Positions 4,028 to 19,031 of a stretch of DNA of 39,732 nt are shown here, piece by piece. Position 1 is the stretch's first letter. Each line of letters opens with the position of its first letter. Source of the DNA: Escherichia phage HK97; sequence record NC_002167.1, one strand, 5' to 3'. The position numbers were made by a program, and so were the translations under genes. The notes below the pieces were generated by a model. It was not told the DNA's origin and did not search any database. It saw nothing but the letters and a program-made list of their open reading frames with translations.

Positions 4028-5185
4028 ATGTCTGAACTCGCTCTCATTCAAAAAGCTATCGAAGAATCCCAGCAGAAAATGACCCAGCTTTTCGATGCGC
4101 AGAAAGCAGAAATCGAAAGCACAGGCCAGGTTTCCAAACAGTTGCAGTCCGACCTGATGAAAGTACAGGAAGAGCTGACCAAATCCGGCACTCGCCTCTT
4201 CGATCTGGAACAGAAACTGGCATCCGGCGCTGAGAATCCTGGTGAGAAGAAATCCTTCTCTGAACGGGCTGCTGAAGAGCTTATTAAGTCATGGGACGGT
4301 AAACAGGGCACCTTTGGCGCTAAAACGTTTAACAAGTCACTAGGCAGTGACGCTGATTCGGCTGGCTCACTGATCCAGCCTATGCAGATCCCAGGCATCA
4401 TCATGCCAGGCCTGCGCCGTCTTACCATTCGTGATCTGCTGGCTCAGGGCCGCACTTCCAGTAACGCTCTGGAATATGTGCGTGAAGAGGTGTTTACCAA
4501 TAACGCCGACGTGGTGGCAGAGAAAGCACTGAAGCCAGAATCGGATATCACCTTCAGCAAACAAACCGCGAACGTGAAGACCATCGCGCACTGGGTGCAG
4601 GCATCACGTCAGGTGATGGATGATGCGCCAATGCTTCAGTCCTACATTAACAACCGCCTCATGTACGGCCTGGCACTGAAGGAAGAGGGCCAGCTGCTGA
4701 ACGGCGACGGTACCGGGGATAACCTGGAAGGGCTGAACAAAGTGGCAACCGCCTATGACACCTCGCTGAATGCCACCGGCGACACCCGCGCTGACATTAT
4801 CGCTCACGCTATTTATCAGGTGACCGAGTCTGAGTTCAGCGCTTCCGGTATCGTCCTGAACCCGCGCGACTGGCACAACATCGCGTTGCTGAAAGACAAT
4901 GAAGGCCGCTATATCTTCGGTGGTCCTCAGGCATTCACCAGTAACATCATGTGGGGCTTGCCAGTGGTTCCGACTAAGGCGCAGGCCGCCGGCACCTTTA
5001 CCGTAGGCGGTTTCGATATGGCCTCACAGGTCTGGGATCGCATGGATGCCACCGTGGAAGTTAGCCGTGAAGACCGCGATAACTTCGTGAAAAACATGCT
5101 GACCATCCTGTGCGAAGAGCGTCTGGCGCTGGCGCATTATCGCCCGACAGCAATCATCAAGGGCACCTTCTCTTCTGGCTCATGA
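4028..5185 (+). CDS. major capsid protein, HK97 fold (gp5-like)
   Basis: 385-aa ORF that matches my recollection of the HK97 gp5 sequence (MSELALIQKAIEES...); directly follows protease. Confidence 0.9.
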   Translation: MSELALIQKAIEESQQKMTQLFDAQKAEIESTGQVSKQLQSDLMKVQEELTKSGTRLFDLEQKLASGAENPGEKKSFSERAAEELIKSWDGKQGTFGAKTFNKSLGSDADSAGSLIQPMQIPGIIMPGLRRLTIRDLLAQGRTSSNALEYVREEVFTNNADVVAEKALKPESDITFSKQTANVKTIAHWVQASRQVMDDAPMLQSYINNRLMYGLALKEEGQLLNGDGTGDNLEGLNKVATAYDTSLNATGDTRADIIAHAIYQVTESEFSASGIVLNPRDWHNIALLKDNEGRYIFGGPQAFTSNIMWGLPVVPTKAQAAGTFTVGGFDMASQVWDRMDATVEVSREDRDNFVKNMLTILCEERLALAHYRPTAIIKGTFSSGS

Positions 5186-6329: not shown

Positions 6330-6673
6330 ATGAAGATAATATCTACGCCTTGCTTTCTCCCCTGGCAGAAGGACGGGTATATCCCTATGTTGCGCCATTA
6401 GGTAGTGACGGTAAACCGTCTGTCTCTCCACCCTGGATTATCTTTTCCATCGTCGATGATGTTTCCGCTGACGTGCTGTGTGGTCAGGCAGAGAGCAGGG
6501 TTTCCGTTCAGGTCGATGTGTATTCCACTTCGATCGCTGAATCACGATCCCTGAGAGATTTGGTGCTCGCTTCGCTTGAGCCGTTAACCCCTACAGAGGT
6601 GGTAAAAATCCCCGGGTACGAGCCAGATTATCGGCTCTACCGTGCCACCCTGGATTTTAAAGTTACCCCCTGA
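6326..6673 (+). CDS. tail completion / tail terminator-like protein
   Basis: 115-aa ORF coupled to upstream gene, immediately before major tail protein. Confidence 0.5.
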   Translation: MNEDNIYALLSPLAEGRVYPYVAPLGSDGKPSVSPPWIIFSIVDDVSADVLCGQAESRVSVQVDVYSTSIAESRSLRDLVLASLEPLTPTEVVKIPGYEPDYRLYRATLDFKVTP

Positions 6674-6692
6674 CAATTAATTCACCCAACGA

Positions 6693-6719
6693 ACCCGCCA
6701 GATGGCGGGTTTTCTTTTT
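6693..6719 (+). terminator. hairpin plus T-run upstream of major tail gene
   Basis: acccgcc-agat-ggcgggt followed by TTTCTTTTT. Confidence 0.5.
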
Positions 6720-6732
6720 CCAGGAGACAGCT

Positions 6733-7437
6733 ATGTCTGCACTTTATGAAAAATCGCAGCTGACGAAGATCCTTATTTCCTCCCTGCCGTCCACCAAAGA
6801 AACGATGGATTCCGCCACCTTTCTCGATCTGAGTTGCACCATCAAAGAAATTCAGTTCACTGGTGGCCAGAAGCAGGATATCGACGTAACAACACTTTGC
6901 TCTACCGAGCAGGAGAACATCAACGGCCTGCCTTCTCCGTCAGAAATCTCTCTGTCCGGCAACTTCTACAATAATCCAGCGCAGGACGCCTTGCGTGATG
7001 CGTATGACAACGACACCACTTACGGCTTCCAGATCATCTTCCCGTCAGGTAATGGTTTTAAGTTCCTGGCCGAAGTTCGCCAGCATACCTGGTCATCTGG
7101 TACCAATGGTGTTGTGGCAGCTACATTCTCACTGCGCCTTAAAGGCAAGCCTGTCCCGATTGACTCTGTACTTAAACTGACCACTGATCTTCCTTCCTCA
7201 CTGTCTGTAGCGGTGGGGGCTGCGATCAGCATGGCTGTAGTAGCTGCCGGTGGTAAGCCTCCGTATGCCTACACCTGGAAGAAGGCAGGTAGCACCGTCA
7301 GCGGGCAGACATCCGATACCTTTAATAAAGCCACCGCAGTTTCAGGTGATGCAGGTGATTACACCTGTGTGGTTACGGATTCTTCTTCTCCGGTCAAAAC
7401 GGTTACCTCAGCTGCCTGCACCCTTACTATCAGTTAA
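6733..7437 (+). CDS. major tail protein with C-terminal Ig-like domain
   Basis: 234-aa ORF with SD aggaga; C-terminal about 80 aa resemble a bacterial Ig-like surface domain (…GDAGDYTCVVTD…); position before G/T chaperones. Confidence 0.7.
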   Translation: MSALYEKSQLTKILISSLPSTKETMDSATFLDLSCTIKEIQFTGGQKQDIDVTTLCSTEQENINGLPSPSEISLSGNFYNNPAQDALRDAYDNDTTYGFQIIFPSGNGFKFLAEVRQHTWSSGTNGVVAATFSLRLKGKPVPIDSVLKLTTDLPSSLSVAVGAAISMAVVAAGGKPPYAYTWKKAGSTVSGQTSDTFNKATAVSGDAGDYTCVVTDSSSPVKTVTSAACTLTIS

Positions 7438-7471
7438 TGGAGATGCCGGGTTGTCCCGGCATGGATAAGCG

Positions 7472-7858
7472 ATGTCGCAAACTTTAAAACAATTAGCCAT
7501 GGCGAAAATGGCTGGCTTTCGCCATAAGACGGTCGTTGTCCCTGAGTGGGAAGGTGTCAAAGTGGTTCTCCGTGAGCCGTCAGGTGAAGCCTGGCTGCGC
7601 TGGCAGGAGGTGGTGAAAGGGGGGGGCGACGATGAAAATGTGTCGGTATCGGAAAAGGCGCACCGTAATCTTTGCGCTGACGTGGTGCTCTTCATTGACG
7701 TTCTGTGTGACACCGATAAGCAACCGGTATTCAGCGTAGACGAAGAAGAGCAGGTGCGTGAAATTTACGGGCCCGTGCACTCACGTCTGCTCAAACAGGC
7801 GCTTGACCTGATCAACAATGCGGACGAAGCGCGGGAAAAGTCTCAACCCCCGGCGTAA
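7472..7858 (+). CDS. tail assembly chaperone (gpG-like)
   Basis: 128-aa acidic ORF between major tail and tape measure; followed by an overlapping ORF in the -1 frame. Confidence 0.65.
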   Translation: MSQTLKQLAMAKMAGFRHKTVVVPEWEGVKVVLREPSGEAWLRWQEVVKGGGDDENVSVSEKAHRNLCADVVLFIDVLCDTDKQPVFSVDEEEQVREIYGPVHSRLLKQALDLINNADEAREKSQPPA

Positions 7859-8145
7859 AGTTTCTGATGTCGCTTGCGCTCCGGATGGGGCGCACGCTCT
7901 CAGAGCTTCGGCAGAATATGACGGCAAGCGAGCTTCTGATGTGGATTGAGTACGACAGGCAAAGCCCGGTTGGCGATATTCGCGGTGATATCCATGCAGC
8001 GCAGATTGTCTCTGCCATCTACGGCTCGCAGGGGGCAAAAGTACCGCTGGACGATGCGATCCTGCGCTGGGGTGGTGATGAGCAATCAGAACCGAAGGAC
8101 CCGTTTGCAGGGCTTGAGGCGGCACTTACAGCTGCGACACAATAA
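7807..8145 (+). CDS. tail assembly chaperone -1 frame extension (gpT-like segment)
   Basis: -1 frame relative to G is open from 7807 to 8145 and overlaps the G 3' end; GGGAAAAG run at 7833-7840 resembles the lambda G/T slippery site. Confidence 0.45.
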   Translation, partial: PDQQCGRSAGKVSTPGVKFLMSLALRMGRTLSELRQNMTASELLMWIEYDRQSPVGDIRGDIHAAQIVSAIYGSQGAKVPLDDAILRWGGDEQSEPKDPFAGLEAALTAATQ

Positions 8146-8202
8146 TTGCTTCACATGCCTTCAATGTAGCGATACGCTCTTTCCTTAAGTAAAGGAGGCG
8201 TT

Positions 8203-8391
8203 ATGGAACCACTGGTAGTAGTGTTTGGAATATTCGGCTGGATGATAAATCTAATTGTGATTTTTTATTTATTACGGTTTAGCACAAGGGCAAATGAACA
8301 AGTTGAAGCCCTTAAAGAGATAAATAAAAAGCAAGATGCGCAAATAGATTTATTAATACAAGTCGCTCACCAAAGAAAAGACAGTTTATAA
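8203..8391 (+). CDS. moron-encoded small membrane protein (candidate superinfection exclusion, HK97 gp15-like)
   Basis: 62-aa ORF, strong SD aaggagg, one N-terminal TM helix; AT-rich compared with flanking tail genes; own terminator downstream. Confidence 0.6.
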   Translation: MEPLVVVFGIFGWMINLIVIFYLLRFSTRANEQVEALKEINKKQDAQIDLLIQVAHQRKDSL

Positions 8392-8397
8392 CTCACG

Positions 8398-8422
8398 ACC
8401 CGCTATCAAGCGGGTTTTTTTT
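8398..8422 (+). terminator. intrinsic terminator after moron
   Basis: acccgc-tatcaa-gcgggt followed by T8. Confidence 0.6.
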
Positions 8423-8434
8423 ATGGGTGAAAAT

Positions 8435-11400
8435 ATGGCTACGTTGCGCGAACTGATCATCAAAATATCTGCAAACTCTCAGTCATTCCAGTCTGAAATT
8501 TCTCGTGCTTCAAGAATGGGGAATGACTATTACCGGGTAATGCAGACTGGAGGACGCCAATCGGCCGCAGCTTCGCGTGAAACTCAGCGTGCCTTGGCTG
8601 AGGTAACTAGTCAAATAAACACCGCGAAGGCCTCAGCACTGGGAATGGCTGGTGCATTTGCTGGAGCATTTGCGACTGGTCATCTTATATCGCTGGCCGA
8701 TGAATGGAGCTCTGTTAATGCCAGGCTAAAGCAGGCTTCCCAGTCGTCAGATGATTTCACGGAGTCCCAGCGGGCGCTGATGGATATTAGCCAGCGAACC
8801 GGAACCGCCTTCTCTGATAATGCGAGTCTTTTTGCGCGTTCAGCCGCTTCTATGCGTGAATATGGCTACAGTTCAGAAGAGGTTCTGAAGGTAACCGAGG
8901 CTATATCAACAGGGCTTAAGCTGTCAGGCGCAAGCGCGTCTGAAGCGAGTTCGGTAATCACGCAGTTCAGCCAGGCTCTGGCGCAGGGTGTTCTTCGAGG
9001 CGAGGAATTTAACTCCGTCAACGAAAACGGTGATCGAGTTATCCGTGCTCTTGCCGCAGGGATGGGTGTAGCTCGTAAAGATCTGAAGGCAATGGCCGAT
9101 CAGGGGATGCTAACCGCAGATAAAGTTGTCCCGGCCCTGATAAGTCAACTTGGCACTATGCGTGGTGAATTTGAGGCAATGCCGCAGACCGTTTCTGCTG
9201 CCACGACGAAAGTCGAAAATGCTTTCATGGCATGGGTAGGTGGCGCTAATGAAGCCACTGGTGCGACAAGTACTCTTGTTGCCGTATTGAATACGGTTTC
9301 TGACAATATAGACACTGTGGCTACGGCTGCCGGAGCTTTGGCTGCGATAGGTGGAGCTCGCTATCTTGGAGGGATGTTTGGCGATCTTGGGAACCAGACG
9401 GCGCAATTAATAGATGCCAGAAAGAACGAAATTGCGCTCGCAGCTGCAAGGGCTGAATCTGCTACCCAATCACAACGCAAGGCCGCCGCCGATGCTATTG
9501 CTGCTGAGCGAGCTTACCAGCTTGCTCAGTCAGAACTTGTGCTGGCAAAGAATACTAATGCTGAGGCTACTGCCACTCAAAATGCCATATCCAAGCGCCG
9601 GGCAATGATTACAGCAAATGCGGCACTGGTACAGTCAAACAGAGCCGTTGCAGCCTCTCAGCAGGCACTTAACTCTGCAACATCAGTGCTGGGGCTTGTA
9701 AAAACTGGCGCTACGGGTCTTTTGTCGTTAGTTGGTGGTTTGCCAGGAATTTTAATGTTGGGTGCTGGGGCGTGGTACACGATGTATCAACGCCAAGAAC
9801 AAGCCAGGGAATCTGCAATCCAATATGCGGACACAATCGAGCAGGTACGAGATAATCTGAAATCAATGTCTCAGACGCAGATATCCGCCAACCTTGGACA
9901 GGCGAATATTTCACTGGATGCTCAGAATAGTGCGATTGAACAGCAGAAGCAGAAAGTTGCTGAATTATCCAATCAACTTTATAACGCAAAATTAGCAGCC
10001 AATTCTGCTTCAGAGGGGACATGGCTGTATAACGATGCGGTTGAGAAAGCCGCAGACTTTGCTTCAGAACTTGCGGTTGAAGAAGGCCGACTTGAGCAAA
10101 TGCTCAATAAAAGAAAGCAAACACAACAGTTAATAAACGACATAACTGATCAGGCTATAAATAAAACAGTAGAAATGGCTGGCGCCGTAAGTTCTCTTAC
10201 AGAGATGTATGACCGGCTGAACAAGGTTTCCAGACAGTCTACAGCAGTGTCCCCACCAAAATATGCAGGACCTGTACTTCCTGCGCTTGATAATAAGCAA
10301 CAACAAGCTATTGAGAAAGCACAGCGACAGCTTGAGCTATCTGGCCTTCAGGGTTTGGATAAGGCTCGAAAGCAGGCAGAATTCGATGCATCTGATCTGA
10401 ACCTTCCAGCTGGTTGGCGTGAGAAATATGTCAGCATGGAAGTTGAGTCTGCTAGGCAATTACAAGCAATTCGTAACTCAAGCCGCCATAAGGGTGGAAA
10501 ATCCGAGGCGGAAAAAACAGCTGATACCTATGACAAGCTGATCAAGCAGCAAAAAGAGCAGATCGCTCTGCAAGGGCAGAATACCGAGCTGGCAAAGGTT
10601 AAATATCAGGTAAGCCAGGGTGAGCTTTCTACGCTAAGTCAGGCCCAGAAAGCCGAAGTTATGCGTAATGCTGCTCTCATCGATCAGGTTAAATTGCGTG
10701 GACAACTGCGAAATTACGAAGCCAACCTTGCTGACAGTAACGCCAGCGCCCGCGCAGCCAATGAAGCGCAACTGCTGGGCTACGGGCAGGGAACCAGGTT
10801 CCGTGAAAGACTTCAGGAGCAGTTCAATCTGCGTAAGGAGTTTGAGCAGAAGAATACCGATCTTCTCCGCCAGCGTCAGGCTGGTGAAATCGACGAGACG
10901 TTCTATCAGCAGGGGCTGGCACTTAATAAGCGCTACCTCGAAGAGCGCCTGCGCGACCAGGAGGGATATTACGCAGCTTCTGATGCGCAGCGTGACGACT
11001 GGATGACGGGACTGTCTGAGGGTTATGCGAACTGGGTGGATGAAGCGACAGATTACTCCTCCATGGCAGCTGACGGGATGAAGCAGGCAATGGGTGGGGC
11101 GGTAACTTCGATTACTGACATGCTCAATGGTAACGTCGACAGCTGGAAGGACTGGGGTGTCAGCGTACTGAAGATCATCCAGAATGTTCTGGTCAATATG
11201 GCTGTTGCTAACGGCGTCAGTTCAATTGGTTCTCTCTTCAGCTTTGGCGCATCTTCCGCCGCTGCCGCCAGTAGCGGTACTGCAATTCAGAACGCTGGCG
11301 CGAACTTCACCTTTAACGCGAAGGGTAATGTTTACGACTCTCCGTCCCTGAGCGCATACAGCAATGGCGTGTTTCAGACCCCTCAGCTTTTTGCTTTTGC

Positions 11401-11704
11401 CAAAGGAGCGGGTGTGTTTGCAGAGGCTGGACCTGAAGCCATTATGCCGCTTACCCGTGCTGCTGATGGTTCGCTTGGCGTTCGGGCTGTTGGCACTGGT
11501 GGTGGTGGTCAGGCTGTATCTTCGGCTCCACAGGTTTACTCACCAATCGATGGCAACGGAAATACTTCCACGCAGACTTCACCCGGCCTTGAGCAATTTG
11601 GTGCTGATGTCGGTAAATATATTGATCAGCGATATAAGCAGAACATCATGCGAGATATTCGCCCTGGCGGTGACATCTGGAACGCAATGAAAGGAACCCG
11701 ATAA
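8435..11704 (+). CDS. tail tape measure protein
   Basis: ORF of over 1000 aa, Ala/Gln-rich coiled-coil composition, between chaperones and M/L/K; start taken as ATG 8435 (MATLREL; in-frame ATG also at 8423). Confidence 0.85.
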   Translation: MATLRELIIKISANSQSFQSEISRASRMGNDYYRVMQTGGRQSAAASRETQRALAEVTSQINTAKASALGMAGAFAGAFATGHLISLADEWSSVNARLKQASQSSDDFTESQRALMDISQRTGTAFSDNASLFARSAASMREYGYSSEEVLKVTEAISTGLKLSGASASEASSVITQFSQALAQGVLRGEEFNSVNENGDRVIRALAAGMGVARKDLKAMADQGMLTADKVVPALISQLGTMRGEFEAMPQTVSAATTKVENAFMAWVGGANEATGATSTLVAVLNTVSDNIDTVATAAGALAAIGGARYLGGMFGDLGNQTAQLIDARKNEIALAAARAESATQSQRKAAADAIAAERAYQLAQSELVLAKNTNAEATATQNAISKRRAMITANAALVQSNRAVAASQQALNSATSVLGLVKTGATGLLSLVGGLPGILMLGAGAWYTMYQRQEQARESAIQYADTIEQVRDNLKSMSQTQISANLGQANISLDAQNSAIEQQKQKVAELSNQLYNAKLAANSASEGTWLYNDAVEKAADFASELAVEEGRLEQMLNKRKQTQQLINDITDQAINKTVEMAGAVSSLTEMYDRLNKVSRQSTAVSPPKYAGPVLPALDNKQQQAIEKAQRQLELSGLQGLDKARKQAEFDASDLNLPAGWREKYVSMEVESARQLQAIRNSSRHKGGKSEAEKTADTYDKLIKQQKEQIALQGQNTELAKVKYQVSQGELSTLSQAQKAEVMRNAALIDQVKLRGQLRNYEANLADSNASARAANEAQLLGYGQGTRFRERLQEQFNLRKEFEQKNTDLLRQRQAGEIDETFYQQGLALNKRYLEERLRDQEGYYAASDAQRDDWMTGLSEGYANWVDEATDYSSMAADGMKQAMGGAVTSITDMLNGNVDSWKDWGVSVLKIIQNVLVNMAVANGVSSIGSLFSFGASSAAAASSGTAIQNAGANFTFNAKGNVYDSPSLSAYSNGVFQTPQLFAFAKGAGVFAEAGPEAIMPLTRAADGSLGVRAVGTGGGGQAVSSAPQVYSPIDGNGNTSTQTSPGLEQFGADVGKYIDQRYKQNIMRDIRPGGDIWNAMKGTR

Positions 11705-12801: not shown

Positions 12802-13512
12802 ATGCGTCAGAAAACCATAGATGCGATTATGGCGCATGCTGCAGCTGAATATCCTCTTGAGTGTTGCGGCGTGGTGGCGCAGAAAAGCCGCGTTGAACGT
12901 TATTTCCCGTGCCGGAATCTTGCCGCGGCGCCGGAGGACAATTTTGTCCTTTGCCCCGAAGACTACGCAGCTGCTGAGGACTGGGGAACGGTGATCGCCA
13001 TCGTTCACAGTCACCCTGACGCCACTACGCAGCCGAGCGAACTGGATAAAGCGCAATGCGACGCAACGCTTTTACCCTGGCATATTGTGAGCTGGCCGGA
13101 GGGGGATTTACGCACCATCCAGCCGCGCGGAGAACTGCCGCTGCTGGAGCGTCCGTTTGTGCTTGGACACTTCGACTGCTGGGGGCTGGTAATGAGCTAT
13201 TTCCGGCAAACGCATGGTATCGAGCTCCACGATTACCGGGTGGATTATCCCTGGTGGGAAAACGACTATCCGGACAATTTTTATCAGGATTGCTGGTATG
13301 AATGCGGATTCAGGGAGTTTGACGGCCCGCCTCAGGAAGGGGACCTCGTCATCATGCAGGTGCAGGCCGATAAGTGGAATCATGCCGGGATTTTACTGGA
13401 GGGTAACATGCTGCTGCACCACCTGTACGGACATCTGAGCCAGCGCGTGCCGTATGGTGGCTACTGGCAGGAAAGGACGATGAAGATTCTTAGACATCAG
13501 AATTTTATTTAA
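12802..13512 (+). CDS. tail assembly protein K-like (MPN/JAMM + NlpC/P60)
   Basis: 236-aa ORF with HSHPD JAMM-type motif and a Cys/His peptidase-like C-terminal half. Confidence 0.75.
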   Translation: MRQKTIDAIMAHAAAEYPLECCGVVAQKSRVERYFPCRNLAAAPEDNFVLCPEDYAAAEDWGTVIAIVHSHPDATTQPSELDKAQCDATLLPWHIVSWPEGDLRTIQPRGELPLLERPFVLGHFDCWGLVMSYFRQTHGIELHDYRVDYPWWENDYPDNFYQDCWYECGFREFDGPPQEGDLVIMQVQADKWNHAGILLEGNMLLHHLYGHLSQRVPYGGYWQERTMKILRHQNFI

Positions 13513-13559
13513 CAAACTGTCACTGATACTATCGTGTAGCACACAGCAAGGAGAACGAT

Positions 13560-13784
13560 ATGTATACAGTTGGGTTTGGTTGGATCTTCGTCGGTATTTT
13601 TATTGGGTTAATTCTCTGGTTTTTCATCAACCGCGCCAGCGTCAGAGCGAACAGGTAGGTTGAATTACTTGAGTCTATCGACCAGAAATTATCAAAAATA
13701 GTAGATCCAAACTTCGAGGCAAATAACAAAGACCAGTCGAAAGAAAACTACCTTGAAGAAGCAAGGAAAAAAGCTGGGCTTTGA
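13560..13784 (+). pseudogene. paralogue of the 8203-8391 moron ORF interrupted by in-frame amber
   Basis: SD aaggaga then ATG 13560; 32-aa TM peptide (MYTVGFGWIFVGIFIGLILWFF…RANR) stops at TAG 13656-13658; the same frame continues 41 codons to TGA 13782-13784; aligns to the 8203 ORF with TAG opposite its Gln codon. Confidence 0.5.
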
Positions 13785-13798
13785 GAGCGTAAATTAAC

Positions 13799-13822
13799 AA
13801 ACCACCTACGGGTGGTTTTTTT
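13799..13822 (+). terminator. intrinsic terminator after second moron
   Basis: aaccacc-tacg-ggtggtt followed by T7. Confidence 0.6.
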
Positions 13823-13833
13823 ATGGGGGCAGC

Positions 13834-14442
13834 ATGCAAGAGGTAATGACAAGAATTGAGCTAAGTGGCGTGCTAGCTAAGACATATGGAAGGGTTCATC
13901 ACCGTCTGGTTCGCACTACTGCTGAAGCCATTAATGCACTCGCGAAAACCATCAATGGATTCGAGAAATTCTTAAACACAAGCAAAGCCCGAGGGCTGAC
14001 GTATGCCGTTTATAGAGATAAAAAGAATATTGGCGTTGATGATCTCGGCTTTCCCGTCACCGGCGAAGTGATCCGGATTGTCCCTGTAGTAATAGGGAGT
14101 AAAAAGGCTGGTCTTTTGCAGACGATCTTGGGGGCCGTGCTTATTACTGCTGCTGTGTTGACTGGACCCGGCGGTATTGGCGCTGCTTTCGCTGCTGGTG
14201 GATTGACGGGGTTTGCTGCTGCCACTGGTGCCTCGTTGGTCCTCGGTGGGGTTATTCAGCTGCTTTCACCGCAGCCATCAGGCATAGCCAGTAAACAAAG
14301 CGCAGATAACCGTGCATCGTATGCGTTTGGCGGGGTAACCAACACTGCAGCGCAAGGCTACCCGGTGCCTCTGCTTTATGGTAAGCGTCGAATCGGCGGA
14401 GCGATTATTTCTGCCGGAATTTATGTCGAAGATCAACAATAA
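13834..14442 (+). CDS. tail assembly protein I-like
   Basis: 202-aa ORF with Gly/Ala-rich hydrophobic central segment, position between K and J. Confidence 0.7.
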   Translation: MQEVMTRIELSGVLAKTYGRVHHRLVRTTAEAINALAKTINGFEKFLNTSKARGLTYAVYRDKKNIGVDDLGFPVTGEVIRIVPVVIGSKKAGLLQTILGAVLITAAVLTGPGGIGAAFAAGGLTGFAAATGASLVLGGVIQLLSPQPSGIASKQSADNRASYAFGGVTNTAAQGYPVPLLYGKRRIGGAIISAGIYVEDQQ

Positions 14443-14474: not shown

Positions 14475-14837
14475 ATGGAAATGACTGTAGGATTCCCTGA
14501 AATGGGTTCACGATTTGAATATGTAAGCTTCGTTCCTGATTTAGAAATTAAAACAATTAAAACTGTCACAACCAAAATTACAGTTTGCAAGCTGGAACAA
14601 ATCAATGCGCCCCATGAATTGGTGTTTATCTATCAGGAGGATTTCAATCCAAGTAGCTCTTTTGCCGAAGTCGAAGCACGCGCTAAAGAATATGCCAGTA
14701 ATGCAATTGCCGGATTAAAAACCCCGGCTCAACCGGGGCAAAGCATTAACTTTGATGCGATGGTAAATATTATCAGCCCTGGCATACAACCTGGATACCG
14801 CCTCGGCTCGGCCTTGCTCTTGCATCGTCATTTTTGA
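14475..14837 (+). CDS. hypothetical protein (moron between I and J)
   Basis: 120-aa ORF with SD aggaga; 5' two-thirds AT-rich; 3' end overlaps a convergent ORF. Confidence 0.4.
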   Translation: MEMTVGFPEMGSRFEYVSFVPDLEIKTIKTVTTKITVCKLEQINAPHELVFIYQEDFNPSSSFAEVEARAKEYASNAIAGLKTPAQPGQSINFDAMVNIISPGIQPGYRLGSALLLHRHF

Positions 14838-14975
14838 TGTATCTTCACCGTATGCCTTAGTCATATACTGAGTCACGCGCTGGCGGAAAGCTCCAGCATC
14901 ACCAGACTCGACAGTGGCGACGGCTAATAAAAACGCCAACGCTTCATCCTGTTGGTCTTCTTTGTTAAAGCTCAT
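14715..14975 (-). CDS. hypothetical protein (antisense to late operon)
   Basis: 86-aa ORF with SD aggag 7 nt upstream of ATG; minus-strand hairpin plus T-run overlaps its stop codon. Confidence 0.45.
   Translation of the reverse strand: MSFNKEDQQDEALAFLLAVATVESGDAGAFRQRVTQYMTKAYGEDTSKMTMQEQGRAEAVSRLYARADNIYHRIKVNALPRLSRGF
14717..14738 (-). terminator. intrinsic terminator for the minus-strand ORF
   Basis: On minus strand: ccccgg-ttgag-ccgggg followed by TTTTT (plus coordinates 14738 down to 14717). Confidence 0.4.
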
Positions 14976-15106
14976 TATAAACTCCTGTTATACCGAGGTC
15001 ATCAGCCGCACCGTCGGCAATTAGTGCGCCAGTGCCCACCACTGGCGGGCTGAGCTTACACATTAACCAGGGATTCCTGTTACCAACAGCCTGATATTTA
15101 AACAGT

Positions 15107-15129
15107 AGCCACCTTTGGGTGGCTTTTTT
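15107..15129 (+). terminator. intrinsic terminator upstream of J
   Basis: agccacc-ttt-gggtggct followed by T6; about 85% identical to the 13799-13822 terminator. Confidence 0.55.
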
Positions 15130-15140
15130 ATGGACGCGAT

Positions 15141-18100
15141 ATGGCTACAGAGAAAGTATTAAAGGGCCGCAAGGGCGGCAGCTCCAGTTCACGAACTCCT
15201 ACCGAACAACCTGATGATCTGCAATCTGTAGCGAAGGCCAAAATCCTCGTTGCGCTTGGGGAAGGTGAGTTTGCAGGGCAGCTCACCGGCAAAGATATCT
15301 ACCTGGACGGAACAGCGCTGGAGAATGCTGACGGCTCCCAAAACTTCAGCGGGGTAACGTGGGAGTTTCGCGCGGGAACTCAGGCGCAAAAATATATTCA
15401 GGGTATTCCCGGTACCGAAAACGAGATCAGCGTAGGAACTGAGGTATCAAGTGCCACAACCTGGACGCGCACGTTTACCAATACGCAGCTTTCAGCAGTT
15501 CGCCTGCGTCTTAAATGGCCCTCGCTTTTCAAACAGGAGGACGACGGCGATCTGGTGGGTTACTCGGTCAATTATGCAATTGACCTGCAGACGGACGGCG
15601 GCACATGGCAGACGGTACTCAATACCAGCGTGACCGGCAAAACGACGTCTGGTTATGAGCGCAGCCACCGTATCGATTTACCGCAGGCTGGCAGCACATG
15701 GACAATACGTCTGCGTAAGATTACCTCTGACGCCAACAGCGCGAAGATCGGCGACACGATGATGCTGCAGAGCTTCACCGAGGTGATTGATGCCAAACTG
15801 CGCTACCCGAACACCGCGCTGCTCTACGTCGAATTCGACTCAAGCCAGTTCAACGGCTCTATTCCTCAAATTTCATGCGAACCGCGCGGCCGCGTTATCC
15901 GCGTTCCAGATACCTACGACCCTGAAACCCGCACTTATAGCGGTACATGGACCGGTGCGTTTAAGTGGGCATGGACGGATAACCCTGCGTGGATTTTTTA
16001 CGACCTGGTTGTTTCTGACCGGTTCGGCCTTGGGCACCGTTTGACCGCTGCGAATATTGATAAATGGACGCTTTATCAGGTTGCTCAGTATTGTGATCAG
16101 ATGGTACCAGACGGCAAAGGGGGCAACGGTACAGAACCACGTTATACCTGCAACGTGTACATTCAGGACCGGAACGACGCCTACACAGTCCTGCGTGATT
16201 TTGCCGCTATCTTCCGTGGCATGACCTACTGGGGCGGGGATCAGATTGTGGCCCTGGCTGACATGCCGCGCGATGTTGATTACAGCTATACGCGCGCTAA
16301 CGTTGTTGGCGGTCGCTTCACCTATTCGAGCAGCACCACGAAAAGCCGCTACACCACAGCGCTGGTTTCATGGTCAGACCCGGGTAACGCTTATGCCGAC
16401 GCGATGGAACCGGTATTTGAGCAGGCGCTGGTGGCGCGGTACGGCTTCAATCAGCTGGAAATGACAGCCATCGGCTGCACCAGGCAGTCAGAGGCGAACC
16501 GAAAGGGGCGCTGGGGTATTCTCACCAATAACAAGGATCGCGTTGTTTCGTTTGATGTCGGGCTGGACGGAAACATTCCGCAGCCGGGCTACATCATCGC
16601 CGTGGCAGACGAGCTGCTTTCCGGAAAGGTTATGGGCGGCCGCATCAGCGCCGTTAACGGTCGCGTTATCAAACTTGACCGCGTAGCTGATGCAGCACCA
16701 GGTGATCGCCTTATTCTCAACCTGCCTTCCGGAGCGTCGCAGAGCAGGACCATTCAGGCCGTGAACGGGGAATCAGTCACAGTCACCACGGCATACAGTG
16801 AGACGCCACAGGCCGAAGCTGTTTGGGTGGTTGAATCTGACGAGCTTTACGCGCAGCAGTATCGTGTTGTCAGCGTTTCCGATAACAATGATGGCACTTT
16901 CTCGATTACCGGCGCATGGCACGACCCGGATAAATATGCCCGTATCGATACCGGAGCCATCATTGACCAACGGCCGGTGAGCGTGATCCCGCCGGGCAAC
17001 CAGTCGCCGCCTGCGAATATCGTGATCAGCTCGTTTTCCGTGGTTCAGCAAAATATCAGCGTCGAAACAATGCGCGTGAGCTGGGACCAGGCGCAGAACG
17101 CTATCGCCTATGAAGCGCAATGGCGCCGCAACGACGGGAACTGGGTTAACGTGCCGCGCACCTCCACCACGTCATTCGACGTCCCGGGGATTTATGCCGG
17201 GCGCTACCTGGTGCGGGTGCGCGCAATCAATGCCGCAGAAATTTCATCCGGATGGGGCTATTCAGAAGAGAAAACGCTGACGGGTAAAGTGGGCAATCCA
17301 CCGAAGCCGGTTGGCTTTATCGCCTCTGAAAACGTGGTGTTCGGTATCGAGCTGAACTGGGGATTCCCGGCGAATACCGACGACACGCTGAAGACGGAAA
17401 TTCAGTACAGCCTGACCGGTACTGAAGACGATGCCATGCTGCTGGCCGATGTGCCTTACCCGCAGCGCAAATATCAGCAGATGGGCCTTAAGGCTGGGCA
17501 GATTTTCTGGTACCGCGCGCAGCTGGTTGACCGCAGCGGTAACGAGTCAGGTTATACCGGCTGGGTTCGTGGGCAGGCCAGTATCGATGTTTCTGACATC
17601 ACAGATGTGATCCTTGAAGACATCAAAGGGTCTGAGACGTTCAAAGACCTGATCGAGAACGCTGTGGACAGCAATGAAAAAATTGCTGGCATGGCTGACG
17701 ACATCAAACAGGCCAACGATGAACTTGAACTCCAGGCGCAGGAAATCGCAAAAAACGCGCAGGACATCGGGCAGGTTCAGACCAGCGTTAATGAGCTTTC
17801 TAGCACGGTCGGTGATGTGTCGTCTTCTCTCTCAGATCTTGAGCAGACTGTTGCGACTGCTGATACCGCACTGGGCCAGCGAATCGACAGCATCAGCGTG
17901 TCTATGGACGGCATGACGGGCGGGGTGAAGAACTCTGCTATCGCAATTATTCAGGGCAACCTGGCGCAGGTAGCCGCGCGTAAAACGTTGTCTGCATCTG
18001 TAGCAGGGAACAGCGCTCAGCTGGACCGTCTAGACGAGGTGATCGTCAGTGAGAAGGAAGCCACAGCACGTTCATTGCTGAGCCTGCAGACGGACGTCAA

Positions 18101-19031
18101 CGGCAACAAGGCATCCATCAACAGCCTGAATCAGACGCTCTCCGACTATCAGCAGGCCACCGCCACGCAGATAAACGGCATCACGGCGACCGTGAACGGG
18201 CATACCTCCGCCATCACCACTAACGCTCAGGCTATAGCCAACGTTAATGGCGAACTCAGCGCGATGTACAACATCAAGGTTGGTGTCTCCAGCAACGGGC
18301 AGTATTACGCCGCGGGCATGGGGATTGGCGTTGGGAACACGCCGTCAGGCATGCAGTCGCAGGTTATCTTCCTGGCTGACCCGTTCGCCGTCACCACGGC
18401 AGCAGGTAACAGCGTGGCTTTGCCGTTCGTGATCCAGAACGGGCAGACATTCATCCGGGCCAGCTTCATCCAGGACGGCACCATTGAGAACGCCAAAATC
18501 GGCAACTATATCCAGTCCAACAACTATGCAGCTGGTTCTGCTGGTTGGAAGTTGAATAAAGCTGGAGATGCTGAATTCAACAATGTGACCGTCAGAGGTG
18601 TAGTATATGCTAGTGGCGGTAGCTTTACTGGTGAGATCCAAGCAACAAGCGGTAAATTCAAAGGGACTGTGGAAGCCCAAAGTTTTATCGGGGACATTGC
18701 AAATATGCACACCGGAACTAACGTTAGTCGGTCTAGTAACGGTCTTTTAGAAAAGGTAATAACTTATACGGATTCATCCAGTTCTGGGCACGCAAGACAC
18801 GTCTGTGTTATAGCAAACGTGAGAGGGAATGGTGCAGGTACGATAAATATTAACGGATCTGAGGGCTCTTCCAGCGTACAGGATGTAGAACGACTTATTA
18901 TGCATTCTGCTGTTGTAACTGGTCCAAACGTTACGGTAAGAATTACAGTTTCCGCTCAGAACAATAGAGGGGCGTCTATATCCTCACCTACTATTATTGT
19001 TTCGCACGGATCCGGTTCATTCACTGGTTAA
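15141..19031 (+). CDS. J: tail tip / host specificity protein J-like
   Basis: 1296-aa ORF after I; size and position as lambda gpJ; C-terminal about 170 codons are compositionally distinct (AT-rich). Confidence 0.85.
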   Translation: MATEKVLKGRKGGSSSSRTPTEQPDDLQSVAKAKILVALGEGEFAGQLTGKDIYLDGTALENADGSQNFSGVTWEFRAGTQAQKYIQGIPGTENEISVGTEVSSATTWTRTFTNTQLSAVRLRLKWPSLFKQEDDGDLVGYSVNYAIDLQTDGGTWQTVLNTSVTGKTTSGYERSHRIDLPQAGSTWTIRLRKITSDANSAKIGDTMMLQSFTEVIDAKLRYPNTALLYVEFDSSQFNGSIPQISCEPRGRVIRVPDTYDPETRTYSGTWTGAFKWAWTDNPAWIFYDLVVSDRFGLGHRLTAANIDKWTLYQVAQYCDQMVPDGKGGNGTEPRYTCNVYIQDRNDAYTVLRDFAAIFRGMTYWGGDQIVALADMPRDVDYSYTRANVVGGRFTYSSSTTKSRYTTALVSWSDPGNAYADAMEPVFEQALVARYGFNQLEMTAIGCTRQSEANRKGRWGILTNNKDRVVSFDVGLDGNIPQPGYIIAVADELLSGKVMGGRISAVNGRVIKLDRVADAAPGDRLILNLPSGASQSRTIQAVNGESVTVTTAYSETPQAEAVWVVESDELYAQQYRVVSVSDNNDGTFSITGAWHDPDKYARIDTGAIIDQRPVSVIPPGNQSPPANIVISSFSVVQQNISVETMRVSWDQAQNAIAYEAQWRRNDGNWVNVPRTSTTSFDVPGIYAGRYLVRVRAINAAEISSGWGYSEEKTLTGKVGNPPKPVGFIASENVVFGIELNWGFPANTDDTLKTEIQYSLTGTEDDAMLLADVPYPQRKYQQMGLKAGQIFWYRAQLVDRSGNESGYTGWVRGQASIDVSDITDVILEDIKGSETFKDLIENAVDSNEKIAGMADDIKQANDELELQAQEIAKNAQDIGQVQTSVNELSSTVGDVSSSLSDLEQTVATADTALGQRIDSISVSMDGMTGGVKNSAIAIIQGNLAQVAARKTLSASVAGNSAQLDRLDEVIVSEKEATARSLLSLQTDVNGNKASINSLNQTLSDYQQATATQINGITATVNGHTSAITTNAQAIANVNGELSAMYNIKVGVSSNGQYYAAGMGIGVGNTPSGMQSQVIFLADPFAVTTAAGNSVALPFVIQNGQTFIRASFIQDGTIENAKIGNYIQSNNYAAGSAGWKLNKAGDAEFNNVTVRGVVYASGGSFTGEIQATSGKFKGTVEAQSFIGDIANMHTGTNVSRSSNGLLEKVITYTDSSSSGHARHVCVIANVRGNGAGTININGSEGSSSVQDVERLIMHSAVVTGPNVTVRITVSAQNNRGASISSPTIIVSHGSGSFTG

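What the first reader, a model, noticed from the sequence alone, without database searches (positions are those of the whole stretch)
8148..8422. Moron in the tail chaperone / tape measure junction encoding a small inner-membrane protein
A 62-aa ORF with a strong SD, a single N-terminal TM helix and its own strong intrinsic terminator is inserted between the G/T chaperone genes and the tape measure gene, in an AT-rich block. This matches the architecture I recall for the HK97 gp15 moron, a superinfection-exclusion protein blocking DNA entry. It would be expressed from the prophage independently of late transcription if a promoter lies in 8148-8200.
Basis: partly seen in the sequence, partly recalled or inferred. 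Interest (0 to 1): 0.5.

Follow-up and report, generated by a model that had tools for sequence, protein, structure and literature searches.

The report
HK97 gp15 moron, already known

Summary
There is a 62-aa ORF at 8203..8391 with an AAGGAGG Shine-Dalgarno. It has one N-terminal hydrophobic helix and a strong intrinsic terminator (8397-8416 plus a T-run, -13 kcal/mol, z -4.8). It sits in a 277-bp AT-rich block (GC 0.37, against 0.54-0.58 in the flanking chaperone genes). That block lies between the tail chaperone genes G/T and the tape measure gene.

The protein is identical to AAF31105.1, "Gp15 [Escherichia phage HK97]". The tape measure protein is identical to HK97 NP_037710.1, which is on record from a single contig of 39,732 b, the length of this window. 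The window is therefore the HK97 genome, and this is the element for which the word "moron" was first used.

Published work shows that gp15 is expressed from the prophage, is a YebO-family inner-membrane protein, and blocks DNA entry by HK97 and HK75 in a way that depends on the incoming phage's tail and tape measure genes.

My additions are small:
- A promoter-like TTCACA-17-TACGCT at 8150-8178 keeps its position in diverged relatives.
- gp15-like genes always sit next to an HK97-type tape measure gene, and their divergence tracks that gene's.
- HK97 carries a second YebO-type moron (gene 20), cut short by an amber codon found only in HK97.

The parts
8146..8422 (+). The whole gp15 moron: the extra DNA between the stop codon of tail gene T (TAA, 8143-8145) and the end of the terminator T-run.
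   Evidence: GC 0.368 against 0.50 genome-wide. Relatives without it have only 19 b (HK022), 32 b (Serratia OS31) or 46 b (vB_EcoM-606R7) between T and the tape measure gene. Megablast matches of SaltyDalty, AsXd-1 and LAU1 stop at 8141. Homology of the tape measure gene in other phages resumes at 8435.
8150..8178 (+). Candidate sigma-70 promoter: -35 TTCACA (8150-8155), 17-nt spacer, -10 TACGCT (8173-8178). The inferred start is near 8185.
   Evidence: 8/12 match, below the tool's threshold. The same -35/17/-10 arrangement sits at the same place in diverged loci L006, L009, L010 and L011 as TTCACA-17-TACGAT (9/12), with different spacer sequences. In K. spallanzanii L005 it is GTGACA-17-TAGGAT (9/12). 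Function is inferred; prophage expression is from the literature.
8192..8198 (+). Shine-Dalgarno sequence AAGGAGG.
   Evidence: Read directly. GGAGG/GGGGG is kept in the HK97-like relatives (L005, L006, L009-L011) in alignment A1; Klebsiella phage ST147-VIM1phi7.2 has GGAGTG there.
8203..8391 (+). Gene 15: a 62-aa YebO-family single-pass membrane protein (gp15, superinfection exclusion).
   Evidence: Exact match to AAF31105.1, Gp15 of HK97. Pfam YebO PF13974 scores 35.4 bits against a cut-off of 27. phrog_5031, E 5e-29. Hydropathy. AF2 single helix.
8397..8424 (+). Intrinsic terminator: an 8-bp stem, a 4-nt loop and a T8 run.
   Evidence: -13.0 kcal/mol, z -4.84. HK75 annotates a terminator at 8398..8422. 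Every homologous locus has its own GC-rich hairpin plus T-run with a different sequence, -10.9 to -14.2 kcal/mol.
7472..8145 (+). Upstream neighbours: tail assembly chaperone G (7472..7858) and T (7867..8145, in the -1 frame relative to G).
   Evidence: Pfam Phage_TAC_1 E 1e-60 and Phage_tail_T E 1.5e-20. Frame analysis.
8435..11704 (+). Downstream neighbour: the tape measure protein gp16 (1089 aa from ATG 8435). Its sequence decides sensitivity to gp15 according to the literature.
   Evidence: Exact match to NP_037710.1. Pfam TMP_3, Phage_HK97_TLTM and Tape_meas_lam_C. ATG 8435 and the preceding GGTGA are conserved in relatives, whereas ATG 8423 is not.

Best explanation
This is the gp15 moron of coliphage HK97: a self-contained transcription unit (weak sigma-70 promoter, strong Shine-Dalgarno, 62-codon gene, intrinsic terminator) lodged between tail gene T and the tape measure gene.

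[quoted passage not shown] The likely topology is N-out/C-in, with a roughly 37-residue cytoplasmic helix.

When HK97 or HK75 later adsorbs to LamB, gp15 stops the tape-measure-protein/PtsG-dependent passage of DNA across the inner membrane. Superinfection fails after adsorption.

During lytic growth, antiterminated late transcription is expected to read through the moron terminator into the tape measure gene.

Basis of each step:
- Shown here: identity, anatomy, YebO-family membership, the inserted nature of the DNA, and the conserved position.
- Taken from the literature: prophage expression, the exclusion phenotype, dependence on the tail/tape-measure genes, and the PtsG link.
- Inferred: the exact promoter, the topology, and read-through of the terminator.
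For: Identity: gp15 is an exact match to AAF31105.1. The tape measure protein is an exact match to NP_037710.1 on a 39,732-b contig. HK75, HK633, mEpX1, HK446, HK106, mEp234 and HK544 carry the same region at 99.5-99.9% identity, annotated as 'similar to HK97 gp15' in HK75, 'Gp15' in the newer mEpX1 and mEp234 records and 'Gp15 exclusion protein' in the mEpX1 note.

Anatomy: Shine-Dalgarno, ORF, terminator and AT-rich block.

Insertion: relatives without the moron have 19-46 b between T and the tape measure gene.

Family: Pfam YebO scores above its cut-off. There is 38% identity over 48 aa to E. coli K-12 YebO, E 1e-6.

Promoter footprint: a -35/17/-10 pair is conserved in position with variable spacers across five diverged loci.

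Terminator: conserved as a structure, not as a sequence.

Function, from papers:
- PMC3594210: expressed from the prophage, located in the inner membrane, excludes HK97 and HK75, receptors not blocked, and a swap with HK022 tail genes relieves exclusion.
- PMC12939059: gp15 acts through the TMP-PtsG complex.
- bioRxiv 10.1101/2025.12.01.691526: HK97 needs LamB, FkpA and PtsG, and the TMP interacts with PtsG.

Support for a functional link to the tape measure protein: in five diverged loci, gp15-like identity to HK97 (75, 83, 80, 76, 46%) follows tape measure identity (71, 82, 82, 80, 54%) and not G or T identity (56-70%).
Against: - The promoter match in HK97 itself is only 8/12. The tool's standard scan reports none. 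Matches of at least 8/12 occur about 2 per kb per strand in this genome, so the sequence alone does not establish a promoter.
- I could not read the two primary papers (PMC3430355 is not held; Mol Microbiol 2015 is not held). The functional statements therefore rest on the authors' own review and on later papers that cite them.
- The molecular contact (gp15 with PtsG, with the tape measure protein, or with both) is described only loosely in the sources I could read. PMC3594210 says the precise mechanism is unknown.
- PADLOC has no model that matches gp15.
Confidence: 0.95

Rival explanations
1. gp15 is a phage copy of the host small membrane protein YebO. It does for the lysogen whatever YebO does (an unknown membrane or stress role), and exclusion is incidental.
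For: The Pfam YebO hit is above its cut-off. There is 38% identity to E. coli YebO over the membrane-proximal region. NCBI names cluster members 'YebO family protein'.
Against: The review reports that overexpressing or deleting E. coli YebO had no effect on HK97 propagation, and that gp15 diverges from YebO at the C-terminus. Within the gp15 clade, the C-terminal helix RANEQVEALKEINKKQDAQIDLLIQ is the most conserved part and differs from YebO's. All gp15-like genes I found sit next to an HK97-type tape measure gene.
Confidence: 0.04
2. The ORF is a late-operon accessory gene needed for tail assembly, for example a third chaperone for the tape measure protein, rather than an independent prophage-expressed unit.
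For: It is co-oriented with the tail genes and lies between them. It would also be transcribed by late read-through. Its divergence tracks that of the tape measure protein.
Against: It is absent from HK022, Serratia OS31 and vB_EcoM-606R7, which have homologous G/T and tape measure genes separated by only 19-46 b. It has its own terminator immediately before the tape measure gene. Its base composition is foreign. The predicted product is a membrane protein.
Confidence: 0.01
3. A chance open reading frame in an AT-rich intergenic spacer, with no protein made.
For: It is short (62 codons), and the PHROG family is labelled 'unknown function'.
Against: Pfam and PHROG hits. Homologues at 42-97% identity keep the reading frame across Escherichia, Citrobacter, Enterobacter, Klebsiella and Salmonella. 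There is a strong Shine-Dalgarno. A phenotype has been published.
Confidence: 0

Closest known systems
HK97 gp15 (AAF31105.1 / Q9MCS4), the moron-encoded superinfection exclusion protein (Juhala et al. 2000; Cumby et al. 2012)
   Same: Everything: identical 62-aa sequence, identical genome position, identical neighbours.
   Different: Nothing. This is the same element.
E. coli K-12 YebO (b1825, 95 aa; Pfam PF13974)
   Same: An N-terminal transmembrane helix followed by the R-x-S-x-R-x-N-E-Q motif and a helical segment. 38% identity over 48 aa.
   Different: YebO is a chromosomal gene next to mgrB. It is 33 aa longer, with a different acidic C-terminus. It is reported to have no effect on HK97.
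HK022 gp20, annotated 'moron gene product' (NP_037680.1, 74 aa); its HK97 counterpart lies at 13560-13784 in this window
   Same: It is also a YebO-family small membrane protein (PF13974, 47.7 bits). It also lies in an AT-rich insert with its own Shine-Dalgarno and terminator between two tail genes.
   Different: It sits at a different junction (K-like / I-like genes). It is only 36% identical to gp15. I found no published function for it. The HK97 copy is cut short by an amber codon.
YebO-like proteins of Klebsiella prophages (e.g. QBP28426.1 of phage ST147-VIM1phi7.2)
   Same: Same slot between T (DUF4035) and the tape measure gene, with the same Shine-Dalgarno/terminator layout. 42-46% identity.
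   Different: Longer, at 77 aa. The C-terminal tail (KDYLDEARKKAGLI) resembles gp20 rather than gp15. It is untested. In that record an IS21 element lies just upstream.
P22 SieA, Streptococcus phage TP-J34 Ltp and Lactococcus phage Tuc2009 Sie2009
   Same: Prophage-encoded envelope proteins that block DNA injection after adsorption. For TP-J34, escape maps to the tape measure protein.
   Different: No sequence relationship was detected in the family searches. The sizes and anchors differ (Ltp is a lipoprotein), and so do the hosts.

Membership tests
HK97 gp15 superinfection exclusion protein | Amino-acid sequence of gp15 | tested here: met
   Exact-sequence look-up returns AAF31105.1 / Q9MCS4_BPHK7, 'Gp15 [Escherichia phage HK97]'.
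HK97 gp15 superinfection exclusion protein | Location between the tail assembly chaperone (G/T) genes and the tape measure gene of an HK97-type tail module | tested here: met
   Pfam assignments of the neighbours. The tape measure protein is identical to HK97 NP_037710.1.
HK97 gp15 superinfection exclusion protein | Inner-membrane localisation | not testable with these tools
   Only predicted here: one hydrophobic helix at residues ~3-25 and an AF2 helix. Stated in PMC3594210.
HK97 gp15 superinfection exclusion protein | Excludes HK97 and HK75 at the DNA-entry step when expressed from a prophage or plasmid | not testable with these tools
   Reported in PMC3594210 and cited in PMC10883804 and PMC12939059. 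The primary paper is not held.
Moron (as described in PMC3594210, citing Juhala et al. 2000) | Extra DNA between two genes that are adjacent in related phages | tested here: met
   The gap from the T stop to the tape measure start is 289 b here. It is 19 b in HK022, 32 b in OS31 and 46 b in 606R7.
Moron (as described in PMC3594210, citing Juhala et al. 2000) | Base composition different from the surrounding genes | tested here: met
   GC 0.368 against 0.54-0.58 (G, T) and 0.51 (tape measure gene). The same holds in all five diverged loci, 0.27-0.35.
Moron (as described in PMC3594210, citing Juhala et al. 2000) | Own terminator | tested here: met
   8397-8416 plus T8, -13.0 kcal/mol, z -4.84. 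Conserved as a structure in relatives.
Moron (as described in PMC3594210, citing Juhala et al. 2000) | Own promoter active in the repressed prophage | tested here: inconclusive
   No hit at the tool's 9/12 threshold. The 8/12 TTCACA-17-TACGCT at 8150-8178 is conserved in position in relatives at 9/12. Activity is known only from the literature.
YebO family (Pfam PF13974) | Score above Pfam's gathering threshold | tested here: met
   35.4 bits against 27, residues 14-59 on profile positions 8-53 of 80.
YebO family (Pfam PF13974) | Pairwise similarity to the founding E. coli YebO | tested here: met
   38% identity over 48 aa, E 1e-6. The C-terminal third of YebO has no counterpart in gp15.

The most novel reading that the evidence does not exclude
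YebO-type morons may be a wider, modular family of injection blockers embedded in tail modules, each co-inherited with and matched to the neighbouring tape measure protein.

- gp15-like genes at 42-83% identity always sit beside an HK97-type tape measure gene and diverge in step with it.
- A second paralogue, gene 20, occupies another tail junction. It is intact in HK022, HK75, HK633 and ECP1 but truncated by an amber codon in HK97, and it may exclude a different set of phages.

If so, the conserved cytoplasmic helix, rather than the membrane helix, would carry the specificity.
Probability: 0.25. Interest if true: 0.4.

Novelty: already known. Interest (0 to 1): 0.07.

Why it matters
As a discovery it does not matter. 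This is the textbook example of a moron and a characterised superinfection exclusion gene, in the reference genome of HK97.

As a calibration point it is useful. A reader without tools recognised the element correctly from its anatomy alone: Shine-Dalgarno, transmembrane helix, terminator, AT-rich insert and position.

Two side observations are cheap, testable leads on how small membrane proteins block tape-measure-mediated DNA entry, whose precise mechanism the sources I could read leave open:
- gp15-like genes diverge in step with the adjacent tape measure gene.
- HK97 has a second YebO-type moron that is disabled.

Tried and rejected
- Looking up HK97 itself (NC_002167) in the phage collection: not held. 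Identity was established through exact protein look-ups instead.
- Reading the primary papers: DOI 10.1128/JB.00843-12 and PMC3430355 are not held. I relied on the authors' review and on later citing papers.
- Standard promoter scan: no hit in 6500-9500. Two other 8/12 matches inside the 3' end of gene T (8114 and 8119) were rejected because they are not conserved in relatives.
- Genome-collection scan with gp15: only one locus, in Klebsiella spallanzanii. Diverged loci were obtained through protein search plus contig look-up.
- PADLOC: no defence-system model hits gp15. NCBIfam: only a sub-threshold TIGR04561 hit.
- Rfam and tRNA scans of the whole window: nothing.
- Counting covariation in the terminator on alignment A1: abandoned, because the hairpins are not in register in the alignment. 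Each was folded separately instead.
- Pfam and PADLOC on the unrelated ORFs that fill the same slot in AsXd-1 and SaltyDalty: no hits.
- No fold search was run, because the model is a single helix.

Full report
**1. The observation**

The window holds a 62-codon ORF at 8203..8391 on the + strand. It is preceded by AAGGAGG (8192-8198), 4 nt before the ATG.

The product begins M-E-P and continues with about 22 hydrophobic residues. Kyte-Doolittle 19-residue means are about 2.4 over residues 3-24. A charged, helix-prone tail follows. AlphaFold2, run on a 16-sequence alignment, gives one continuous helix from residue 2 to 61, with mean pLDDT 85.5.

Six bases after the stop codon lies GACCCGCT-ATCA-AGCGGGTT followed by eight T. 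As RNA it folds at -13.0 kcal/mol, z = -4.84, and none of 200 shuffles folds as well.

GC is 0.368 over 8146-8422 and 0.328 in the ORF. It is 0.543 and 0.577 in the two upstream genes, 0.506 in the downstream gene and 0.498 genome-wide.

The upstream genes are Phage_TAC_1 (7472..7858) and Phage_tail_T (7867..8145). The downstream gene is a tape measure protein carrying the TMP_3, Phage_HK97_TLTM and Tape_meas_lam_C domains. No minus-strand ORF of 30 aa or more lies inside the block.

Every descriptive element in the finding is therefore present at the stated coordinates.

**2. What it is**

An exact-sequence look-up of the 62-aa product returns AAF31105.1 / UniProt Q9MCS4_BPHK7, "Gp15 [Escherichia phage HK97]".

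The tape measure protein read from ATG 8435 is identical to NP_037710.1, "tail length tape measure protein [Escherichia phage HK97]". That protein is on record from one contig of 39,732 b, exactly the window's length. The major capsid protein at 4028..5185 is identical to CAPSD_BPHK7.

The HK97 record itself is not in the phage collection. Its close relatives HK75, HK633, mEpX1, HK446, HK106, mEp234 and HK544 carry the same 834-b stretch at 99.5-99.9% identity. In HK75 it lies at identical coordinates, and the gene is annotated "similar to Bacteriophage HK97 gp15".

The window is the HK97 genome, and the finding is gene 15 itself.

**3. It is inserted DNA**

Phages with homologous G/T and tape measure genes but no gene 15 have only a short spacer between them:
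- 19 b in HK022, where the tape measure protein is still called gp16, skipping 15.
- 32 b in Serratia phage OS31.
- 46 b in vB_EcoM-606R7.

In HK97 the gap is 289 b. DNA similarity to SaltyDalty, AsXd-1 and LAU1 stops at 8141, the end of T. Tape measure similarity to many phages resumes at 8435.

AsXd-1 and SaltyDalty fill the same slot with unrelated ORFs that match no family. The T/tape-measure junction is thus a variable slot.

**4. Family**

gp15 scores 35.4 bits on Pfam YebO (cut-off 27). It aligns with E. coli K-12 YebO at 38% identity over 48 residues, E 1e-6. The aligned stretch covers the end of the membrane helix and the R-x-S-x-R-x-N-E-Q motif.

YebO's C-terminal third has no counterpart in gp15. 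This agrees with the authors' statement that gp15 resembles YebO at the N-terminus and diverges at the C-terminus.

**5. Signals**

*Promoter.* The tool's scan finds no promoter in 6500-9500. Relaxing the threshold to 8/12 gives TTCACA (8150-8155), a 17-nt spacer and TACGCT (8173-8178). On its own this is weak, because matches of at least 8/12 occur about 2 per kb per strand in this genome.

I fetched diverged copies of the moron from Citrobacter, Enterobacter and Klebsiella prophages and aligned the region. The same arrangement sits at the same place directly after the T stop codon. It reads TTCACA-17-TACGAT (9/12) in L006, L009, L010 and L011, with three different spacer sequences. It reads GTGACA-17-TAGGAT (9/12) in K. 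spallanzanii.

Two other 8/12 matches inside the end of gene T are not conserved.

This footprint supports a real but modest promoter, with a start near 8185 and a leader of roughly 17 nt. Activity itself is known from the literature only.

*Terminator.* It is conserved as a structure and not as a sequence. Each locus has its own GC-rich hairpin plus T-run, at -10.9 to -14.2 kcal/mol.

**6. How it works**

From the authors' review (PMC3594210):
- Gene 15 was the element for which "moron" was first used.
[quoted passage not shown] - The block is relieved by swapping in the HK022 tail region.

Later papers add the following:
- HK97 injection needs LamB, the periplasmic chaperone FkpA and the inner-membrane glucose transporter PtsG, with the tape measure protein contacting PtsG (bioRxiv 10.1101/2025.12.01.691526).
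- gp15 acts through the TMP-PtsG complex (PMC12939059).

My inferences from the sequence:
- The positive-inside rule (no basic residue before the helix; R25, R29, K38, K42 and K43 after it) puts only about three residues in the periplasm and the 37-residue C-terminal helix in the cytoplasm.
- Within the gp15 clade, that C-terminal helix (RANEQVEALKEINKKQDAQIDLLIQ) is more conserved than the membrane helix.
- gp15 therefore probably acts inside the membrane or on its cytoplasmic face, not in the periplasm.
- During lytic growth, the late transcript must pass the moron terminator to reach the tape measure gene. In lambdoid phages this is expected from Q-type antitermination. That is established knowledge; I did not test it here.

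**7. Distribution**

The 90% cluster around gp15 has 66 member sequences. They come from Escherichia, Salmonella, Enterobacter and Citrobacter, and most are named "YebO family protein". The HK75-type variant, one residue different, is on 528 contigs.

More distant members (72-85% identity) are mainly from Citrobacter. Klebsiella phages carry 42-46% homologues.

In every locus I examined, the gene lies between T and an HK97-type tape measure gene. Only 6 of 5,426 complete E. coli genomes carry this moron at high identity.

Across five diverged loci, gp15-like identity to HK97 (75, 83, 80, 76, 46%) follows tape measure identity (71, 82, 82, 80, 54%). G and T identities stay at 56-70% regardless.

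With n = 5 this is only suggestive. It fits an old insertion inherited together with the tape measure gene. The low GC (0.27-0.35) persists in all five loci, so it is not simply a sign of recent arrival.

**8. Comparison with the known, and the verdict**

The element is not merely like HK97 gp15; it is HK97 gp15. Membership is met for sequence, position, YebO family, inserted nature, composition and terminator. It is inconclusive by sequence for the promoter. It cannot be tested here for localisation and phenotype, both of which are published.

Novelty: already known. Interest is low.

The rivals each fail on the evidence given under the rival explanations: a housekeeping YebO-like role, a tail assembly accessory, and a chance ORF.

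**9. Side observations**

The most notable is a second YebO-type moron at 13513-13833, between the K-like and I-like tail genes. It has its own Shine-Dalgarno and terminator and GC 0.387.

In HK022 this gene is annotated gp20, "moron gene product", 74 aa. It is intact in HK022, HK75, HK633 and ECP1. HK97 alone has T instead of C at 13656, which turns CAG into TAG at codon 33.

The full-length reading scores 47.7 bits on Pfam YebO. I found no paper in the held library that links gp20 to YebO or gives it a function.

Noticed in passing
window 13513-13833 (ORF from ATG 13560; in-frame TAG at 13656-13658; terminator 13799-13818): A second YebO-family moron (gene 20) lies between the K-like (12802..13512) and I-like (13834..14442) tail genes. 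It is AT-rich (GC 0.387), with Shine-Dalgarno AAGGAGAA and its own terminator. The frame reads MYTVGFGWIFVGIFIGLILWFFINRASVRANR*VELLES...YLEEARKKAGL*. HK022 (gp20, 'moron gene product', 74 aa), HK75, HK633 and ECP1 have CAG where HK97 alone has TAG, so the HK97 copy is truncated to 32 aa, the membrane helix only. With Q restored it scores 47.7 bits on Pfam YebO. I found no published function.
   Followed up: partly
window 8423-8437: The mechanical ORF list and the HK75 annotation start the tape measure gene at ATG 8423, which overlaps the moron terminator's T-run and has no Shine-Dalgarno. The conserved start is ATG 8435 (MATLREL...), preceded by GGGTGA. Relatives have no ATG at the 8423 position. 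The 8435 product is the exact HK97 RefSeq protein NP_037710.1, while the 8423 product is not in the collection.
   Followed up: yes
loci L004, L005, L006, L010, L011 compared with window 7472-11134: Identity of gp15-like proteins to HK97 gp15 tracks identity of the adjacent tape measure protein (75/71, 83/82, 80/82, 76/80, 46/54%) and not that of G or T (56-70%). The moron stays at GC 0.27-0.35 in all of them. This suggests long co-inheritance with the tape measure gene. The sample is small, n=5.
   Followed up: partly
L004 3983-4216 (Klebsiella phage ST147-VIM1phi7.2): The Klebsiella YebO-like protein in the T/tape-measure slot has a gp15-like core (RANDQIAMLKEISEKQSAQIDLLIALAH) and a gp20-like C-terminal tail (KDYLDEARKKAGLI), which links the two HK97/HK022 morons. 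In this record an IS21 element (transposase plus AAA ATPase) is inserted between T and the moron.
   Followed up: partly
L015 1091-1441 (Aeromonas phage AsXd-1); L003 2833-3126 (Escherichia phage SaltyDalty): Other HK97-like phages fill the same T/tape-measure slot with unrelated ORFs of 116 and 97 aa. Neither has a Pfam or PADLOC match. The junction looks like a recurrent insertion slot.
   Followed up: partly
window 14475-15140: Between the I-like gene and the host-specificity (J-like) gene 15141..19031 lies another AT-rich stretch. It holds a + strand ORF of 120 aa (14475..14837; phrog_11851, unknown function). It also holds a minus-strand unit: a promoter-like ATGACC-17-TATAAT (10/12, 15002..14974), an 86-aa ORF (14975..14715) and a terminator (14739..14721). 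The 86-aa ORF has no Pfam or PHROG hit. This may be a further moron, in reverse orientation.
   Followed up: partly
window 7830-7870: T (7867..8145) is in the -1 frame relative to G (7472..7858). The T frame is open back to about 7807, overlapping the end of G. The run GGGAAAAG at 7833-7840 (zero frame CGG GAA AAG) is a plausible slip site for the conserved G-T frameshift product. HK022's record notes the same arrangement.
   Followed up: no
window 8146-8434, searched against E. coli genomes: Only 6 of 5,426 complete E. coli genomes carry this moron at 96.9% identity or more, always on the chromosome and annotated 'YebO family protein'. It is rare in E. coli even though HK97 is a model phage.
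   Followed up: yes
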